DNA of 63,773 bases, filler included, from Stramenopiles sp. TOSAG23-3 (Eukaryota): assembly GCA_900128585.1 (NCBI GenBank). It is 14 parts of 14 records of this genome, joined end to end, with 100 filler letters (N's around TTAATTAATTAA, not from the genome) between each part and the next. Parts side by side here need not be neighbours in the genome. Positions count along the whole stretch, not along the records: positions 49,582 to 54,974 come from LT643539.1; 13 more parts are not named here. The stretch is one strand, 5' to 3'. The notes under the pieces were generated by a model, which worked only from the letters and a program-made list of their open reading frames with translations, made no database searches and was not told the origin of the DNA. The position numbers and the translations under genes are program-made. Below are positions 5,422-58,254 of this stretch, piece by piece. Positions within the stretch are counted from its first letter, which is position 1. The number at the start of each line of letters is the position of its first letter.

Positions 5422-5521
5422 NNNNNNNNNNNNNNNNNNNNNNNNNNNNNNNNNNNNNNNNNNNNTTAATTAATTAANNNNNNNNNNNNNNNNNNNNNNN
5501 NNNNNNNNNNNNNNNNNNNNN
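5422..5521. other. Artificial contig linker; 12 more start at 10942, 16461, 21972, 27480, 32987, 38493, 43988, 49482, 54975, 60467, 61570 and 62672
   Basis: Identical 100-nt N-TTAATTAATTAA-N blocks with stops in all six frames. Confidence 0.99.
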
Positions 5522-9968: not shown

Positions 9969-11116
9969 GAGAGCCGAGAAGAGAGCCGAGAACAAAAACA
10001 CAAAAACCGCATTAGATTTTTAGAGGATTTGCCGCTGTTCCTTCTCCTTAATTATTGGAATCTCTTCTTGTGTTTATGTATGAGTATTTTATATTGGCAA
10101 TTTGGTATTAAATATATATATTAAATGTATATTAACAGGTAGGTACCATAAGGTATAATACCAGTTCGGTTTTAATTAATAAAATACCTTATTAACGTAC
10201 CCGACCCGACGACGACGACGGCGTGAAAAAAACATTGAAGAAGAACCAAAACATTGAACCAAAACATTGCACAGCATCATCTGTCTTCGTATAATACATA
10301 TTTCACGATTGAGGAGGAGAGAAGAAGAAAAAGACGAATGAATTACTGTAATAATAATCTTCTATTTATTATAAAAAATAATTTTAAAAAAATAGTAGAA
10401 GCTACTATCATCACATCATCATTATTATTATTGTTTTTTGTTTTTGTTTGTTCCTAGTTCTTTACCCACCACCGATGGAACTCAATTTGGTGTTTATCAA
10501 AGTCTTGTTCTTACTCTTGCGTGAGATTGAAGATAAAAGGAAGAAGAAAGAAGAAGATAAAAGGAAGAAGAAAGAAGAAGATAATAGAAGAAGGAAGAAG
10601 GAAGAAGAAAGAAGAAGGAAAGAAAGAATTTGTTCCATTTCATTCTCTAATAATTATATATAATAAATATATTCCTTAATATTATACCATTGTAAATATA
10701 ATTCAAAACAAAACATAATATAAATATAATTGGGTATTTAGATTATACTTATTGTATATACAATATAGTTTAAGTATTATATTGAGAATACATACACAAA
10801 CATATAATAAAATCCCTTCCATACTACTTCCATATCAGCTATTATATATAATATTTTTACTTGTTTTAAAAGATCACCCTGTTGTTTTTGATGCTTAGTG
10901 TTAGAGTATTAGGGTTAGGGTGATCTTTTTCTTTCTTTCTTNNNNNNNNNNNNNNNNNNNNNNNNNNNNNNNNNNNNNNNNNNNNTTAATTAATTAANNN
11001 NNNNNNNNNNNNNNNNNNNNNNNNNNNNNNNNNNNNNNNNNATAGTTTATACTTATAAAGTGGTTCGGTATTTCCTATGAATGCGTGTTCAGCAAACGTT
11101 CGTTGTCAGCTCTCTA

Positions 11117-49023: not shown

Positions 49024-50736
49024 TTGTTCGTGTCGTTAATAAACTATGGAACTGAAGACCCCCCCCACCACGGTCGTTCTGAAGTATATGACTATTATTG
49101 GTTGGCTCTATCGTCCAACAACAAGTGTGCTTGACAATCAATCTACGTTTAAAACTGAAAACTCGGTGAAAGAAGCGCACAAAAGCAGCTAACAGTAAAA
49201 CGCACTTGTTGTGATCTTTCTTTCTTCTGTTCCTTTTTCTCTACTATTTCGCATGTATATGGTGGTGCGCGTGGATGGCGCAGGTGGGCTTCTTCTCTTT
49301 TGTGTTCGTCGACGAATAAAACCGCACAGCCAGCACAGCACATATAATTCCTTATTTTCACGATATTCGTTCTCTCTTCTTTTATTAAATCATCTTCTTG
49401 ACAAAAAATCACTTCTTCATTTCTAAAAAACAAAAAATAAAAGTGGAAGAATAATAGGATTTACACAGCATTAAAATAAAANNNNNNNNNNNNNNNNNNN
49501 NNNNNNNNNNNNNNNNNNNNNNNNNTTAATTAATTAANNNNNNNNNNNNNNNNNNNNNNNNNNNNNNNNNNNNNNNNNNNNTTTTTTTTTTTTTTTTTTT
49601 TTTTTTTTTTCTTCTTCTTCTTCTCTTCATCAATTTTTAAAGAAGAGAAGAAGAAGAAGAAGAAGAGCTGAGAGCTGAGATTTGGTATAGAAGAAGAAGA
49701 AGAAGAGGAGGCTCCTTGGTATAATTATTTTTTGCTTCTTCTTCAACCAACAATAAATATAAATAAATAGTATTAATTCATTTTGGTTTGTACTTAAAAC
49801 TTGTATATAAAAAAAGTTTATCTGAGGATTTTTCTAATTGTGATAAATAATAATTTTGATTATTTTATATAACTATCATATAGGTATTTATAATTAATTG
49901 AATAGGAGGATTCAAGAGCTTTTGTTTTCTTCAAATGCTGGAGACAGGATTAGTAGGAACAACATGTAGTTAAGGTAACTAACAATTTAAATCGCTATAC
50001 GAGATTACATTATTGATGACTTTGTGATTTTGATTATTTTAATCATGAATACAATGACAAGATACTGTGCCAGAAGGATGGATGCAAGCGAGAAATATTA
50101 TTATCCCAGAAGAAAACCGATGTCCTTAATTGAAAATGCATCAAGTAGACTTTCAACTATAACATTTTGTATACTAAAAGAACAATAATTCACTATCTAT
50201 AATGTCAATGTTGTGATTATGGTGGAATCGTATTCTATTAATATAGACAGAGCATTGACATTTGTCACCACCATTCGTTTTCCTTTTTTTAATTCTTTTT
50301 ATTTATTTAGGCTAGGAATTATCAATTAAGGAATATATACACAGTACAATGGAATACTATTTTGATTTAAATTATTTTCAATTTCTATATTGACTTTAAA
50401 ACAGTTGTAAACATGGGGATTGCCTACAGGCACATTCGAAGATGGCCTTAATTATCGAAGAGACCAGATTACTTTTTCATTATTTAATTATAAGGGGAAT
50501 AGTATTGAACGGGACAATAATAAATATTTCCATTATCATAACACAACAACAGGGGAGCAGGACGGTAAAAGAAGTATTTTTACGACTCGTATACAAGCCT
50601 TTCTTTTTCGTTGTTTCGACACATTGGGTGCGGTCAACGCATCCTCGGAAATCCAATCCAACCCGAAAGTCACTCGTAGCTTTGCGAAGTAGTAAAATCA
50701 AAGAAATACAATCACAATTTTTTCAAAACATCAATC

Positions 50737-50907
50737 ATGCCTTCATTAGCACACACTCGCCCACGCAAATACGGAAAAGGATCCCGTTCCTCGCGAATAA
50801 CCGGAAGGCCCGGTGGTAACGGGTTGATCCGCAAATACGGTCTTAACATGAAGCGCCAGGAATTCCGTGAGCTTGCCAGATCTATGGGATGGTCCAAGTT
50901 TAATTAA
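50737..50907 (+). CDS. RPS29: 40S ribosomal protein S29 (uS14), cysteine-free variant; not in the ORF track
   Basis: MPSLAHTRPRKYGKGSRSSRITGRPGGNGLIRKYGLNMKRQEFRELARSMGWSKFN* (56 aa); PRKYGKGSR and GLIRKYGLNM are diagnostic. Confidence 0.93.
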   Translation: MPSLAHTRPRKYGKGSRSSRITGRPGGNGLIRKYGLNMKRQEFRELARSMGWSKFN

Positions 50908-52162
50908 GTAAGCAAAATGTGGTTTGGAATACGTTAGGATGCAGAGATGTATTAGAAGGAAGCGTAAATGGTGTGTGTAGCACAACATCGAGCATGGGGA
51001 GGGAAGCATGGTTTTTCACTACCGTGCACCTTATGGTAAAAGACTTGAGCCAGGCACGGCTGGCTGCGATTCTGTCGCATTTATCAAGACCATATCGACA
51101 GCGCCACACCACCAAAAGCGTGGAGCACATTTGTGCATTTGCAGGAACTTTGCTGGCGTCGCAGTTGCTTTTATGTCTTTTTAGTGTTGAATAAATATTC
51201 TAGGCTAGTTAATTGTTTATTAAAAAAACGCAGAAGCAATATTTTTTTCTCTTCGGCGATGCGGCAGACTGTACCGGATCCGCCCAATACTATGCAACCT
51301 GGTTCACATTGGACCTGACCATCGCGTTCCAAATTCTTAAACCGCTGAAAACCATTCTCCTCCAAACATATTGTTCCCTCTCTCTACGCGCCGTGCTCCT
51401 ATGCCTTCATTAATCCAAACGCCATTTGTAATTTTCTCAAAAAAATGGAAATCCTGGCGGCCGCAAACAACTGGGGCTTGGAGCTTGGACCCTTATAACA
51501 ACACTATCATTAGTACAAATAAACCGTATACTTTACACGCTTTTATTCCTATTGAATAATGAAAATTTTGATTATTATTATTTTCTGATATAATTTCAGA
51601 ATTGTGATTCTTCCTTCTTCATTTTTCTTCTTTCTTCTCCTCTTCTTCTTCAATCATTTTTTTTCTCATTCTTCATCATCAGCAATAATTTATAAAACAA
51701 AATTCTATAATTATATATAGACACACCATTGAAACAGGAGTATTTATTATTTTATTGTATCCATTTTTTAAAATATAATAATAATAAAAATAACAACAAC
51801 AGAAAATTATTATTATTTTTTGGATTATTATTTTATTCATATAGTAAACAACAACAGGACACAACAGGGAAGGAAGCTTTCTTCAACTACAGAAAAAAAA
51901 AAAGCAGAAGAAAGAAGAAGGAATGACATCAAACAAGGAGAACAGGAGAACACAGAAAGGAGAGAATAATAATAAAGGAACCCTTCCCTTTACTTACTTC
52001 CGTTTTAATTCAAACACCAATGGGACCTGTACAGGCGAAAAGGTCAACGTTTAAATTTTGAAAGTAGCTTTTTACATTATCAGGTTGGACGAGAAGAGAC
52101 ACAGAACACAATTTAAAAAGAAAGCAAACCACTTCTATTAATCTCAAACTTTTTATTTCCAA

Positions 52163-52768
52163 ATGAAACTCTTCGTTGCTCTTGCCCTTGTAGTGGCAGT
52201 AACCATGGTGCCATCGGGGGAAGCCGCTGGAAGCCTTGACTTTGCGTGTGGTGAGATGATCGGTGCATTGTGTGGAGGTCTTCCACACGACCAGGTGAAG
52301 GAATGCCTTCGCCGAAATCGGGACAGGTTAAGCCGTCCGTGCCACGAGAAAATCATTGAAGATGAAGCGTTCGACTGCGGTCTTGCGGTCGAGAAAGAAT
52401 GCGGTGCTGCACGAAAGAACGGCACAGAGGCCTTCCACAAGTGCATCAAGGAACACGACAAAGTCTTCGAGGAAATTTGCCCAGAAAAGAGCAAAGATCG
52501 CCGGGTTGACTGGGACGAGCAAAAAAACATCAAGTGTGGCTGGGAGGTTGAGGAATACTGCAGCCCATGCAAGGATCGCGCGTGCGTTAAAAAGTGCATC
52601 GAAGCCCTTGCAGAGAAAACCACGGAATGCGGGATTGCCTTCCACGAGAAGGCTAACTTCGAGTGTGGCATCGAATTTGAAGTTGAATGTGGCAAATCGC
52701 GAGAGCTTGGTCCAATTGAGCTCGTTCGATGCATTGAGGAGCGCCACCCCTGTGCAGCACGCAACTAG
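52163..52768 (+). CDS. Secreted cysteine-rich repeat protein (four CGxExxxxC...C repeats)
   Basis: Signal peptide; repeats resembling GLG1-type Cys-rich units. Confidence 0.8.
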   Translation: MKLFVALALVVAVTMVPSGEAAGSLDFACGEMIGALCGGLPHDQVKECLRRNRDRLSRPCHEKIIEDEAFDCGLAVEKECGAARKNGTEAFHKCIKEHDKVFEEICPEKSKDRRVDWDEQKNIKCGWEVEEYCSPCKDRACVKKCIEALAEKTTECGIAFHEKANFECGIEFEVECGKSRELGPIELVRCIEERHPCAARN

Positions 52769-53382: not shown

Positions 53383-54747
53383 ATGGGGATCCTGCGAATG
53401 TTGCGGGGCTTCATTGGCCTCTGCGTTTTCGTTTTTGTACTGTTTGCCCTGGAAAAAAATTTACATTTTGGTGACAAGATAGAGTTTCTACGCCGTTCGT
53501 ACGCAATAGTAGGGGGCTATAGGACTGTCGTGGAAGCCAGCCGTCATAGCACGTTTCTTAGAACGGCGGAGGCCAACTATTTTTTTCGGAACGGAATTTC
53601 AAAGCAAGCGGTAGACACCATCTTGCAACAGGCGGTAAATTTTGAAAAAATTGTCAATAGCATTGAACCCATTGACACGATCCAGTTTACCATGTATCGC
53701 TCCAAACAACTCACTGATGCATGGGGAAAAGGCAGCGTCGAAACCTTTCAGAATAAAGAGCACGCCTGCCCCTACGTACAGAAATGTTTTTCCGTGGTAG
53801 GCGATTTGTCCCAAGACAAGTCCCTGTCTCGATCACGCGCATCGGTCAACATGGTCTCCAATTGTCAAAATATAGAAAATGGTCTGTCCAAATCTTTTAT
53901 GGAAGGCGACACCTTTTATTTTCCTGGAAAGAATTTAAGAAAAGTTTTGCTGTGTGGAGAAGGTGGCCGGAAGGCCCTAGAGGGAAAACTCGAGAACTTT
54001 GACATCGCATTTTTGTTCAACCCTATGGTGCCGTACACCACGACACAAGGTGCAGTACAGCAGACCGAGTTGTTATTTTTTAATCCGCATGTGCGCGGTG
54101 GGGTAAGTTTTTTTTTGAAACTGGCACGGACGGCGAGAAACCCCAAGCCTAGGATCCAGCTAGGGGCGCACCGTTTTGACGTCGGGATATTTGTAAGCAA
54201 TTGCGAAGGGGGCCCCCGGAACAGGTACTTGAGTGCGTTAACAGAACCCTCTGCCCTCAAAACATTGTCTGTTTTTTCGTTTGGAAAGTGCTTTCCTGTG
54301 CATGGACGGGGGCGTACCAACGTTCAAGAGTTTCTTCGAATGAACGTCGCCGACGACACTATGGATGGTGGTGGAAACCCCTTCAAGGAGAAAGAGTACG
54401 CATCGAGGTCATTCCGGTTCATAGTGAGCATGGAAAACGCAGTCGATAACCCGTTTTATGTCACAGAAAAGATTTTCAACGCTTACCGTAGCGGCGCGCT
54501 GCCTCTCTACCTAGGCCCCCGCGAGGTACTTTTGTTTGTACCAAAGCACAGTTTCATAGATGTGAGTAACTACAGAGACACACCGGCTTTGGTAAAATAT
54601 TTGGAATACCTCAAGAAAAATCGGAGTGCTTACGATGAATACATGTCTTGGGACCTGGACGAGTATGTCAGCAGGCCGTGGATACAGAGTAAGTTACTGT
54701 CCACATCTTGGCAATGCAGACTGTGCTCCCAGCTGTCGTCTTTGTAA
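53383..54747 (+). CDS. GT10 alpha-1,3/4-fucosyltransferase-like protein
   Basis: Type II TM anchor; FVSNC and FIVSMEN...YVTEKIFNAYRSGALPLYLG. Confidence 0.9.
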   Translation: MGILRMLRGFIGLCVFVFVLFALEKNLHFGDKIEFLRRSYAIVGGYRTVVEASRHSTFLRTAEANYFFRNGISKQAVDTILQQAVNFEKIVNSIEPIDTIQFTMYRSKQLTDAWGKGSVETFQNKEHACPYVQKCFSVVGDLSQDKSLSRSRASVNMVSNCQNIENGLSKSFMEGDTFYFPGKNLRKVLLCGEGGRKALEGKLENFDIAFLFNPMVPYTTTQGAVQQTELLFFNPHVRGGVSFFLKLARTARNPKPRIQLGAHRFDVGIFVSNCEGGPRNRYLSALTEPSALKTLSVFSFGKCFPVHGRGRTNVQEFLRMNVADDTMDGGGNPFKEKEYASRSFRFIVSMENAVDNPFYVTEKIFNAYRSGALPLYLGPREVLLFVPKHSFIDVSNYRDTPALVKYLEYLKKNRSAYDEYMSWDLDEYVSRPWIQSKLLSTSWQCRLCSQLSSL

Positions 54748-56432: not shown

Positions 56433-58254
56433 TCAAATGGGAATCCTGCTTTTATGAAGGCCGTACCGTGATATTTTCGAGTACTTTGCCAGGTCGTTCG
56501 ATTTCTGCAGAAAAAGAAAGTGAGGGAACTGTTAGTACGTTGGGCGCAAGAGGAAAGAGCTTTTCGATACCGTACCGCATACGCCTGCAACCACCAGTCA
56601 CGGTGCTGCGCAGTACAAGCCGAGGGGGAACGGGAAAATAACACACACACACAGAGAAAAAACGGAGAAACCCAATACGGATTCAACAAATCAGCCAGAG
56701 GTCAGTGGAAGGAACAGGTACATGACAACTTACTGCTGTAGGAGAATAGATCCCTCCATGGTCCATACGTTGAAAACCAGCGGCTTGAAGCTTCAAGCTG
56801 CTATCAATTAAAAGCCACAAGCCCAACAGCGTCTTCAAGGCCACGACGCAACAGAAGAGCAGCCCGAGTATTAAGACCGTCTGCGCCGTCGAGTACGTCC
56901 ACGTCCGATCGCTCACGTGCAGATAAATTATACGCAAAGAAACGCAGGCCAAGGGAATGTTCGGTAGCCCCAACCGCCTGGAAAGCAAGTGCGTGTGGTC
57001 TAGGACTTTCCGCTGCGACCGTGTACGGGAGGATGTCAAGTCGTGCCGCAAGACTGCCTCAAAGTGCGCGTAGACGTCCAGGGACATCCGGTTGAACTTG
57101 GAAATAAAAGCGTGCTTGACCCAGTCTACGCCGACTTCGCAGCAAAAAATGACCGACGCGGAGTACACAAAGTTGCCAAAGTCGTAGTCCCGTCGAAGGC
57201 CTTCCGTTCCTATCAGTATCAGAAAAAGGACAATGTTGAACCGCTCCACAATATCCGCGCAGGCTATTTGAAAGAGGTTCTCCGCCTGAAACCGTTTGAA
57301 CACGCTCGATTTTAGTTCTATAAAGTTGTTCGAGATGAGGAGCGTCAACAAGGCATTGTCTTTCGTGTTGATTGCAACGTTCAGGGCAACCATGCGGGCA
57401 AAGGTGAGCGCACCGTGGACCATGGCGTACAGCAGACCTGCGATGGACATTGCAAAAATTTTGCACTTGCGGTCCCACGGACGATTCTGCGTCGCCCAGT
57501 GCAACGAATCAAAAATATCCTGCCCCAAGGCAGTCAGGAGCTTGTCAAATATGTCCAGCAAATTGAAAATGACGTACAGCCGCATGAAGGAAAGCATTTT
57601 TATGTAATGGTACGCTCGAGACATGTCGAGGTAGCCGATCGACCACGCGGCAATGATGAGCGTAATGGTCCTCAAAAGTATATACACATGTTGGCGAGCA
57701 AACATGCCCTGAAGGTTCGGGAACAGGTGTTTCACTGGGTATGTCAAAATCTTGCTAGCCAACAGCAAGAACGCCCAGAGCGCCCGCAACGGCAGGTACG
57801 TGAACACGTACAAGAAAGAGTCCGTGGCAAGGATAAGCCCATAAAGCATTAAGCTCTCTACTTTCAGCGGAATCTTCACCATAGACAATACCAGCTGCTG
57901 CTCTTCCCACCCCAGCGCCGCCTCAGTGTCATGAACGAAGTCCCTGTCCATAGTGCCAGTCATCTCCAGCCGCAGGTAGTCCAAGAAGGACACTTTGTTG
58001 GAACTTGCGTCGGCGACCTTGACCTTTCTCGGCGGGGTCGCGGCCGTAGTATCGACTTTTGGGTAGTCTTTTCCTCCTTTCAAATTCCCAGACAACGCGC
58101 GCCGACGATAAAGGGTGGAGTCGGCAGCATTGCTTTGAAACGATTTCTCCCGGACCTCACAGTTTTCATTCCCCGAGCCTTTCATTCTCTGCTCCAACAA
58201 GGCCAACCTTTGCGCCAGTAAACTAATTTCATCCCGTAAGCTGCCGTCCGCCAT
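56433..58254 (-). CDS. TAPT1: TAPT1/Emp65 (DUF747) membrane protein; exons 58254-56734, 56605-56576, 56504-56433
   Basis: LNVAIN...LLISNNFIELKSSVFKRF, DIVERF, VDWVKHAFI.KFN. GT-AG introns restore a family-like tail KISRYGLHKSRIPI. Confidence 0.9.

What the first reader, a model, noticed from the sequence alone, without database searches (positions are those of the whole stretch)
50737..50907. Zinc-free cytosolic RPS29/uS14: all four Cys ligands replaced
Seen: an intact 56-aa RPS29 in which the canonical CxxC…CxxC reads SRIT…KRQE. The first knuckle becomes SRITGRPGGNG, echoing the 'TGRP' of bacterial C-minus S14. Established: eukaryotic/archaeal uS14 binds a metal via four Cys, and bacteria swap C+ for C- paralogs under zinc limitation. 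Inference: this is a metal-independent eukaryotic ribosomal protein, either a replacement or a zinc-starvation paralog. The Lys/Glu pair might substitute for the metal. Conserved flanks argue against simple decay.
Basis: partly seen in the sequence, partly recalled or inferred. Interest (0 to 1): 0.78.

Follow-up and report, generated by a model that had tools for sequence, protein, structure and literature searches.

The report
Zinc-free ribosomal protein uS14 gene
This is a real, expressed gene for small-subunit ribosomal protein uS14 (RPS29) that has lost all four zinc-holding cysteines, but it is the end point of a zinc-site loss already widespread in diatoms, other protists and several fungi, so it is less exceptional than it first looked.

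Summary
Window 50737-50907 (+) is an intact, intronless 56-aa cytosolic uS14/RPS29 gene. The four Zn-ligand positions read S19, T22, K39 and E42, and knuckle 1 carries a 2-residue insertion.

The gene is not decaying:
- mRNA contigs from 4 marine metatranscriptome studies match it 100%, without joints.
- dN/dS against three diverged relatives is about 0.08-0.11, and S/T/K/E is kept under different synonymous codons.

It is not a lone oddity. Diatoms, Parmales and a dictyochophyte-like transcriptome share the insertion with T at ligand 2 and K at ligand 3, and keep only one Cys. A Symbiodinium-type group has none. Several fungi keep one or two.

K. lactis and S. pombe ribosome structures contain one-Cys uS14, and a published table lists each as single-copy.

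Best reading: this is the principal, zinc-independent uS14 of an uncultured marine stramenopile, the last step of an ancient lineage-wide loss. A zinc-starvation paralog could not be excluded because no genome is held. Ten literature searches found no description of the phenomenon in cytosolic eukaryotic uS14. Interest is moderate to low.

The parts
50737..50907 (+). CDS of cytosolic ribosomal protein uS14/RPS29, 56 aa plus stop, no intron
   Evidence: ORF; PF00253 at 30.2 bits against cut-off 27; PDB uS14 hits down to E 5e-13; RNA contigs colinear with the DNA
50791..50793 (+). Codon TCG = S19, at Zn-ligand position 1 (Cys in canonical uS14)
   Evidence: Alignments; codon listing
50800..50802 (+). 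Codon ACC = T22, at Zn-ligand position 2
   Evidence: Alignments; codon listing
50812..50817 (+). G26-G27, a two-residue insertion in the first knuckle loop (loop of 7 against 5 in canonical forms)
   Evidence: HMMER gaps opposite G26-G27; loop-length tally
50851..50853 (+). Codon AAG = K39, at Zn-ligand position 3
   Evidence: Alignments; codon listing
50860..50862 (+). Codon GAA = E42, at Zn-ligand position 4
   Evidence: Alignments; codon listing
50706..50736 (+). 5' untranslated leader (approximate start)
   Evidence: Contigs from RNA-library runs of three studies begin at 50706 or 50709; a fourth begins at 50694
50908..51168 (+). 3' untranslated region (minimum extent); an AATAAA lies at about 51190
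   Evidence: RNA contigs end at 51061, 51111, 51135 and 51168; sequence

Best explanation
The gene encodes the principal cytosolic small-subunit ribosomal protein uS14 (RPS29) of an uncultured marine protist, most likely a heterotrophic stramenopile. It is a zinc-independent form. The Cys4 knuckle that staples canonical eukaryotic and archaeal uS14 has been replaced by Ser, Thr, Lys and Glu, together with a two-residue longer first loop. The rRNA-contacting core is kept. The zinc site was not lost in this organism alone. An insertion-bearing form with Thr at ligand 2 and Lys at ligand 3 is shared with diatoms, Parmales and a Symbiodinium-type group. The window's lineage merely lost the last, already functionless, Cys and gained Glu at ligand 4. 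Inferred, not shown: the protein folds on the 18S rRNA scaffold, the Lys side chain fills the former metal site, and Ser/Thr/Glu give polar contacts to it.
For: Shown:
- The ORF is intact and belongs to the family.
- An AlphaFold2 model built on a 143-row alignment has mean pLDDT 82.7. Foldseek gave 40 matches at E<=0.001. All 50 listed rows are ribosome or small-subunit entries, with TMq 0.60-0.68, and they include K. lactis and S. pombe.
- Expression: 20 of 24 listed runs hold the stretch, and 6 of these are RNA runs from 5 studies. Contigs from 4 RNA runs of 4 studies are 100% identical. They span 50694/50706/50709 to 51061-51168, show no joints and no other letters, and none was laid on the flanks.
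- Selection: dN/dS is 0.083 against L001/L002 and 0.096-0.114 against L003/L004, with pS 0.64-0.70. Between the relatives themselves pS is 0.91-0.94, which is saturated.
- S/T/K/E is kept in all five CDSs. Synonymous codons differ at each of the four sites. Only the CDS aligns by blastn.
- L002 carries a GT10 homologue beside its S29 gene, 34% identical over 413 aa (E 1e-63) to the window's GT10 gene at 53383-54747.
- Lineage-wide pattern: one-Cys forms with the same insertion, T and K occur in Nitzschia, Odontella, Seminavis (named 40S S29), Thalassiosira oceanica, Ditylum, Parmales and others.
- Precedent: one-Cys uS14 is present in solved K. lactis (5IT7) and S. pombe (9AXT) ribosomes. Table 2 of PMC11508205 lists one uS14 gene in each species.
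Against: - No whole genome is held, so a second, Cys-containing RPS29 in this organism cannot be excluded. Only the 64-kb window was searched, and it holds one copy.
- Contigs cannot rank expression or show incorporation into ribosomes.
- Metal content was not measured.
- The model built on a 17-row alignment was poor, with mean pLDDT 61 and residues 17-25 below 50. The better model may lean on canonical rows of the deeper alignment.
- The placement as a stramenopile rests on one neighbouring gene.
Confidence: 0.75

Rival explanations
1. It is a zinc-starvation (C-minus) paralog used beside an unseen canonical, zinc-binding RPS29 encoded elsewhere in the genome. This would parallel the bacterial RpsN/RpsN2 pairs and the zinc-free r-protein paralogs reported for Encephalitozoon cuniculi.
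For: The genome could not be searched. Bacterial C+/C- switching is established (passages of PMC13090322 and PMC11508205). The Methods of PMC8807834 state that some E. cuniculi ribosomal proteins have one zinc-coordinating and one zinc-free gene. Starmerella bacillaris carries a two-Cys form named S29B, which hints at paralogs in some fungi.
Against: Transcripts were assembled in RNA runs of 5 studies from unmanipulated sea water. The Cys-free state is old and under strong purifying selection in three lineages. The wider clade (diatoms and relatives) carries the one-Cys form under the S29 name. K. lactis and S. pombe manage with a single, one-Cys uS14 gene.
Confidence: 0.15
2. It is a decaying or non-functional copy (a processed pseudogene) that lost its cysteines by drift.
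For: The gene has no intron, and all four ligands are gone.
Against: The frame is intact and dN/dS is about 0.1 with saturated synonymous sites. The same four residues are kept under different codons. The gene is transcribed, with defined ends, in 4 laid runs. The window is intron-poor in general, with many long ORFs.
Confidence: 0.02
3. The loss is a specific adaptation to zinc scarcity in the open ocean, lowering the ribosomal zinc quota, rather than neutral erosion of a dispensable site.
For: The closest relatives come from marine metagenomes and metatranscriptomes. The Cys-depleted forms abound in marine diatoms and dinoflagellate-type sequences.
Against: The same erosion occurs in fungi that are not marine plankton: K. 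lactis, S. pombe, Hortaea, Venturia, Saccharata, Jaminaea and Starmerella. No other zinc-ribbon r-protein of this organism could be examined. No expression-versus-metal data were available.
Confidence: 0.15

Closest known systems
S. pombe uS14 (rps29), chain Aj of PDB 9AXT/9AXV
   Same: A short eukaryotic uS14 of 56 aa, colinear with the window protein (E 1.9e-12). Its ligand columns read C, T, S, S, and T-G-R follows ligand 1 as in the window. It is built into an S. pombe 80S structure. Table 2 of PMC11508205 lists one gene copy.
   Different: It keeps one Cys, lacks the two-residue insertion, and has Ser rather than Lys/Glu at ligands 3 and 4.
Kluyveromyces lactis uS14, chain d of PDB 5IT7/5IT9/3J80
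   Same: This is the best PDB match (E 5e-13). Its ligand columns read C, S, D, S. It sits in solved K. lactis ribosomes and is listed with one gene copy.
   Different: It keeps one Cys, has no insertion, and has Asp/Ser at ligands 3 and 4.
Diatom and ochrophyte RPS29 (Seminavis robusta '40S ribosomal protein S29', Thalassiosira oceanica THAOC_11485, Nitzschia, Odontella, Ditylum, Parmales sp.)
   Same: These are 57-72% identical to the window protein. They share the seven-residue loop with the GG insertion, Thr (or Ser) at ligand 2 and Lys at ligand 3.
   Different: They keep Cys at ligand 1 and have V/A/T/S (rarely C) at ligand 4. They carry a 6-residue longer N-terminus of a different sequence.
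Bacterial C-minus S14 (E. coli K-12 rpsN)
   Same: It belongs to the same family (PF00253). The zinc site is degraded, with Thr at ligand 2 followed by G-R-P, and one Cys is left at ligand 1.
   Different: It is 101 aa long, with a long N-terminal domain, and is only 35% identical in the multiple alignment. It has a two-residue deletion where the window has M-K. The resemblance is most simply parallel decay.
Zinc-free paralogs of ribosomal proteins in Encephalitozoon cuniculi (Methods of PMC8807834)
   Same: This is a eukaryote with zinc-free versions of normally zinc-binding cytosolic r-proteins (passage read).
   Different: There they are second genes beside zinc-binding ones, and the zinc-binding isoforms were the ones seen in the ribosome. 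The passage does not say which proteins are involved, and the supplements were not available.

Membership tests
uS14 / Ribosomal_S14 (Pfam PF00253), eukaryotic-archaeal short type (S29e) | Profile score above the curated threshold | tested here: met
   30.2 bits against cut-off 27; residues 7-54 cover profile positions 4-52 of 54
uS14 / Ribosomal_S14 (Pfam PF00253), eukaryotic-archaeal short type (S29e) | About 56 aa, colinear end to end with uS14 chains of solved 40S subunits | tested here: met
   56 distinct PDB sequences at E<=0.001; the best alignments span residues 6-55
uS14 / Ribosomal_S14 (Pfam PF00253), eukaryotic-archaeal short type (S29e) | Conserved core between and after the knuckles (the G-L-I-R-K-Y-G-L-N-M / R-Q / F-R-E block) | tested here: met
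   The block is identical or conservative in alignments to K. lactis, S. pombe and canonical forms
uS14 / Ribosomal_S14 (Pfam PF00253), eukaryotic-archaeal short type (S29e) | uS14 fold | tested here: met
   AF2 mean pLDDT 82.7. All 50 listed Foldseek matches are ribosome or small-subunit entries, TMq 0.60-0.68. This is a prediction only, and the shallow-alignment model was poor.
uS14 / Ribosomal_S14 (Pfam PF00253), eukaryotic-archaeal short type (S29e) | Incorporation into the 40S head | not testable with these tools
   Needs ribosome proteomics or cryo-EM
Zinc-binding (C+, 'type Z') uS14 | CxxC...CxxC tetrad | tested here: not met
   0 of 4 Cys: S19, T22, K39, E42. The whole protein contains no Cys or His beyond H6.
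Zinc-starvation C-minus paralog system (bacterial RpsN2-like) | A C+ paralog in the same genome | not testable with these tools
   No genome is held. The window holds one S29 locus only.
Zinc-starvation C-minus paralog system (bacterial RpsN2-like) | Expression controlled by zinc supply | not testable with these tools
   Only presence in environmental RNA runs is shown
Zinc-starvation C-minus paralog system (bacterial RpsN2-like) | Long bacterial-type architecture (about 100 aa with an N-terminal domain) | tested here: not met
   56 aa against 101 aa for E. coli rpsN. Only residues 19-47 align.

The most novel reading that the evidence does not exclude
The zinc site of cytosolic uS14 was lost once, early in stramenopile evolution, and possibly before the split from dinoflagellates. 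It was replaced by a lysine-centred polar cluster plus a longer loop. On this reading whole major marine groups, diatoms included, run a zinc-free 40S head protein. This has gone unremarked and contradicts the current statement that the RPS29 CxxC motif is conserved across eukaryotes. The window's S-T-K-E form would be its completed state, with a Lys-Glu pair standing in for the metal.
Probability: 0.4. Interest if true: 0.5.

Novelty: new member of a known kind. Interest (0 to 1): 0.33.

Why it matters
uS14 is one of the textbook zinc-binding ribosomal proteins. A 2026 survey still states that its CxxC motifs are maintained across eukaryotes (PMC13090322, passages read). The data gathered here show otherwise. 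The site has eroded repeatedly in fungi. It is gone, or reduced to one Cys, in diatoms and related algae, in a dinoflagellate-type group, and completely in the window's lineage.

This bears on estimates of ribosomal zinc quotas in marine plankton. It also bears on how a 56-residue protein keeps its shape without its metal staple. For this particular gene the practical message is that it is an ordinary, working ribosomal protein gene of its clade.

Tried and rejected
**Calls that gave nothing or were closed**
- The genome search with a family name as 'where' was an invalid argument. The bacterial comparison was done through an annotated E. coli record instead.
- The protein atlas gave only 'S29, Ascomycota/Archaea' for the protein and 'TAPT1, Arthropoda/Nematoda' for the neighbour. 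Neither helps with placement.
- The third cluster look-up named only canonical forms from unrelated taxa (Salpingoeca, Wallemia, Brassica). The C-Q-N-V and C-T-S-T groups stayed unnamed.

**Weak or unusable results**
- AlphaFold2 on a 17-row alignment gave mean pLDDT 61, with knuckle 1 below 50. It was not used for fold search.
- Runs X21-X24 hold next to none of the sampled words. This is no evidence either way.
- Parts of the laid stretch without RNA cover (50300-50693 and 51169-51400) come from contigs, so they give only a weak hint of transcript ends.
- A 20-A loose end before 50694 in the X15 contig is unexplained and is treated as a library artefact.

**Inferences I considered and discounted**
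- The link between Ser at ligand 1 and Glu at ligand 4 is not independent evidence, because these sequences form one clade.
- The grouping of the window's clade with the Symbiodinium-type group (support 0.95, about 50 columns, FastTree, midpoint root) may be driven partly by the ligand columns themselves.
- My first motif regex mis-registered some Symbiodinium-type sequences, giving for example 'LSKE'. Capping the loop at 8 residues removed the loop-10 mis-registrations. Two zero-Cys cores with a loop of 8 remain unchecked.

**Literature**
Ten searches found no paper describing Cys-free or Cys-poor cytosolic eukaryotic uS14. Supplements are closed. Supplementary Fig. 6B of PMC13090322 and Supplementary Figs 4-6 of PMC8807834 might bear on this.

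Full report
**What is there.** Window 50737-50907 (+) is an uninterrupted ORF of 56 codons plus stop. Its product scores 30.2 bits on Pfam Ribosomal_S14 against a cut-off of 27. It matches 56 distinct uS14/S29 sequences of solved ribosomes at E<=0.001, the best at 5e-13.

In those alignments, and in a MAFFT alignment with canonical forms, the four zinc-ligand columns fall on S19, T22, K39 and E42. G26-G27 are an insertion in the first knuckle loop. The whole protein contains no cysteine.

BLASTP against E. coli K-12 rpsN, fetched as an annotated record, aligns residues 19-47 to rpsN 64-88. T-G-R-P is identical, and a Cys stands opposite S19. The window holds only this one S29 locus.

**It is a working gene.**
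- The stretch is held by 20 of 24 listed public runs. Six of these are metatranscriptome runs from five studies.
- I laid four RNA runs from four studies. Each gave one contig, 100% identical to the window.
- These contigs start at 50694, 50706, 50709 and 50709 and end at 51061-51168. They show no joints, no indels and no other letters.
- At contig level, therefore, no intron or editing change was seen. Contigs drop rare variants, and they cannot rank expression.
- Four metagenome loci carry 56-codon orthologues with no gaps. L001 and L002 are 88% identical in protein. L003 and L004 are 80% identical.
- Nei-Gojobori dN/dS is 0.083 against L001/L002 and 0.096-0.114 against L003/L004. pS is 0.64-0.70 against the window and 0.91-0.94 between the two relatives' lineages, which is saturated.
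- All five CDSs keep S, T, K and E at the ligand columns, and synonymous codons differ at each of the four sites. Outside the CDS nothing aligns by blastn.
- L002 has a GT10 glycosyltransferase homologue next to its S29 gene. It is 34% identical over 413 aa (E 1e-63) to the window's GT10 gene at 53383-54747. This is a modest sign that these are the same locus.

**It is not a lone oddity.** A full HMMER scan of 1.84 billion representatives found 428 relatives at E<=0.001. This sample is enriched for relatives of the query and is not a census. It holds 191 distinct knuckle-to-knuckle cores:

| Cys at the four ligand columns | Distinct cores |
|---|---|
| 4 | 36 |
| 3 | 1 |
| 2 | 18 |
| 1 | 120 |
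| 0 | 16 |

- Of the 137 cores with the seven-residue loop, 129 have Lys at ligand 3.
- The profile search listed 120 of 1186 hits. Among its 97 newly fetched proteins, 96 gave a motif, and all 96 have Cys at ligand 1 only or at ligands 1 and 4.
- Named carriers of the one-Cys, insertion-bearing form are the diatoms Nitzschia sp. Nitz4, Odontella aurita, Seminavis robusta (named '40S ribosomal protein S29'), Thalassiosira oceanica and Ditylum brightwellii.
- Chaetoceros neogracile carries a two-Cys version of this form.
- Several MMETSP transcriptomes, Parmales sp. 'scaly parma' and an MMETSP1173 'Rhizo...' transcriptome also carry the one-Cys form.
- A Cys-free S-S-K-E form occurs in a Symbiodinium sp. 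Y106 gene model and in related environmental sequences.
- Fungi show independent erosion without Lys: Hortaea werneckii, Saccharata proteae, Venturia, Jaminaea rosea and Starmerella bacillaris.
- The fully Cys-free S-T-K-E form of the window is so far environmental only: the window, P0001, P0002, the P0007 cluster of 14 members and the P0008 cluster of 5.

**Structural precedent.**
- The two best PDB matches are themselves Cys-poor. Chain d of 5IT7/3J80 reads C, S, D, S at the ligand columns. Chain Aj of 9AXT reads C, T, S, S.
- 5IT7 is a K. lactis ribosome (Methods and deposition statement of PMC4861600; Foldseek titles).
- 9AXT is the S. pombe 80S (data-availability statement of PMC11461667; title).
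- Table 2 of PMC11508205 lists one uS14 gene each in K. lactis and S. pombe.
- A eukaryotic ribosome can therefore run on a single uS14 that cannot form a Cys4 site.
- An AlphaFold2 model of the window protein on a 143-row alignment has mean pLDDT 82.7. All 50 Foldseek matches listed are ribosome or small-subunit entries, with TMq 0.60-0.68.
- A shallower alignment gave a poor model.

**Whose gene is it?**
- No genome is held.
- The neighbouring TAPT1/DUF747 gene (56683-58254, minus strand) has unnamed environmental relatives at 66-74% identity. Its nearest named relatives are oomycetes at 35-41%.
- In a FastTree of 35 sequences over 494 columns, the window sits with environmental sequences. 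That group is sister (support 0.91) to a group containing the labyrinthulomycete Mucochytrium. The two together are sister (0.99) to oomycetes plus brown-algal relatives.
- On this one gene the organism is a stramenopile outside the ochrophytes and oomycetes.
- In the S29 tree the Cys-free forms (the window's clade plus the Symbiodinium-type group) form one clade with support 0.95, apart from the diatom clade. With about 50 columns, and with the ligand columns included, I give this little weight.

**How it most likely works.**
- Established: in canonical uS14 the four Cys hold a zinc ion that ties the two knuckles together. Bacterial C-minus forms do without it (passages).
- Shown here: the window protein keeps the conserved core and the predicted fold but has none of the ligands.
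- Inferred: the fold is held by the rRNA pocket and a longer first loop, with Lys39 occupying the former metal position and Ser19, Thr22 and Glu42 as polar partners.
- The Lys is the conserved element of this design, present in 129 of 137 insertion-type cores. Glu is confined to the Ser-first clade: 14 of 14 there against 1 of 123 Cys-first cores.
- Fungal forms manage with Ser, Asp or Gly at ligand 3, so a Lys-Glu pair is not required in general.

**Paralog or replacement?**
- I favour replacement. The evidence is the environmental transcripts in five studies, the strong constraint, orthologues in three lineages, the same type named as S29 in a diatom, and the yeast single-copy precedents.
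- A hidden canonical copy remains possible. E. cuniculi is reported to have zinc-binding and zinc-free gene pairs for some r-proteins (Methods passage of PMC8807834).
- The zinc-scarcity adaptation idea is weakened by the fungal cases.

**Literature.**
- Ten searches found no paper describing Cys-poor cytosolic eukaryotic uS14.
- PMC13090322 states that the motif is maintained in diverse eukaryotes (passages read).

**Verdict.** Zinc independence is well supported by sequence, though metal content was not measured. The gene is a new, fully Cys-free member of a zinc-free uS14 type that is already common in public data but apparently undiscussed. Interest is moderate to low for the gene itself. 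The lineage-wide pattern is somewhat more interesting.

Noticed in passing
Relatives P0041, P0058, P0050, P0097, P0037 and P0057 (not in the window): A ubiquitin-family domain is fused in front of a Cys-free or one-Cys uS14 domain. PF00240 scores 32.3 bits in P0041 and 45.5 bits in P0058, with PF00253 behind it. A 716-aa Symbiodinium sp. Y106 gene model has the same arrangement. This recalls the Ub-eS31, Ub-eL40 and FUBI-eS30 fusions, but for uS14. The window gene has no such domain.
   Followed up: partly
window 52163-52768 (+): A 201-aa ORF with a signal-peptide-like N-terminus and 18 Cys in repeated E-C-G-like spacing has no Pfam family. It lies between the S29 gene and the GT10 gene.
   Followed up: no
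window 5422-5521, 10942-11041 and onward, roughly every 5.5 kb; closer together after 60467: There are 26 blocks of 44 N, arranged in pairs 12 bases apart at near-regular spacing. They look like masking rather than assembly gaps. None touches the S29 gene.
   Followed up: no
window 50694 (contig of run X15): One contig from an RNA run carries 20 A's, absent from the genome, directly 5' of position 50694. That is upstream of the sense transcript. It is unexplained and may be a library artefact.
   Followed up: no
P0240 (TAPT1 named Durusdinium trenchii): In the TAPT1 tree this dinoflagellate-labelled protein pairs with the labyrinthulomycete Mucochytrium quahogii at support 1.00. It may be a contaminant or a transferred gene in that assembly.
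   Followed up: no
P0324 (133 aa, environmental) and P0029: These single predicted proteins contain two S29 units in tandem. In P0324 the first is cut after the first knuckle region. In P0029 one unit has Tyr at ligand 1. They could be tandem gene copies or read-through gene models.
   Followed up: no
window 53383-54747 (+) and L002 1684-3036 (-): A GT10 fucosyltransferase-like gene lies next to the S29 gene both in the window and in a relative's contig, in inverted orientation.
   Followed up: partly
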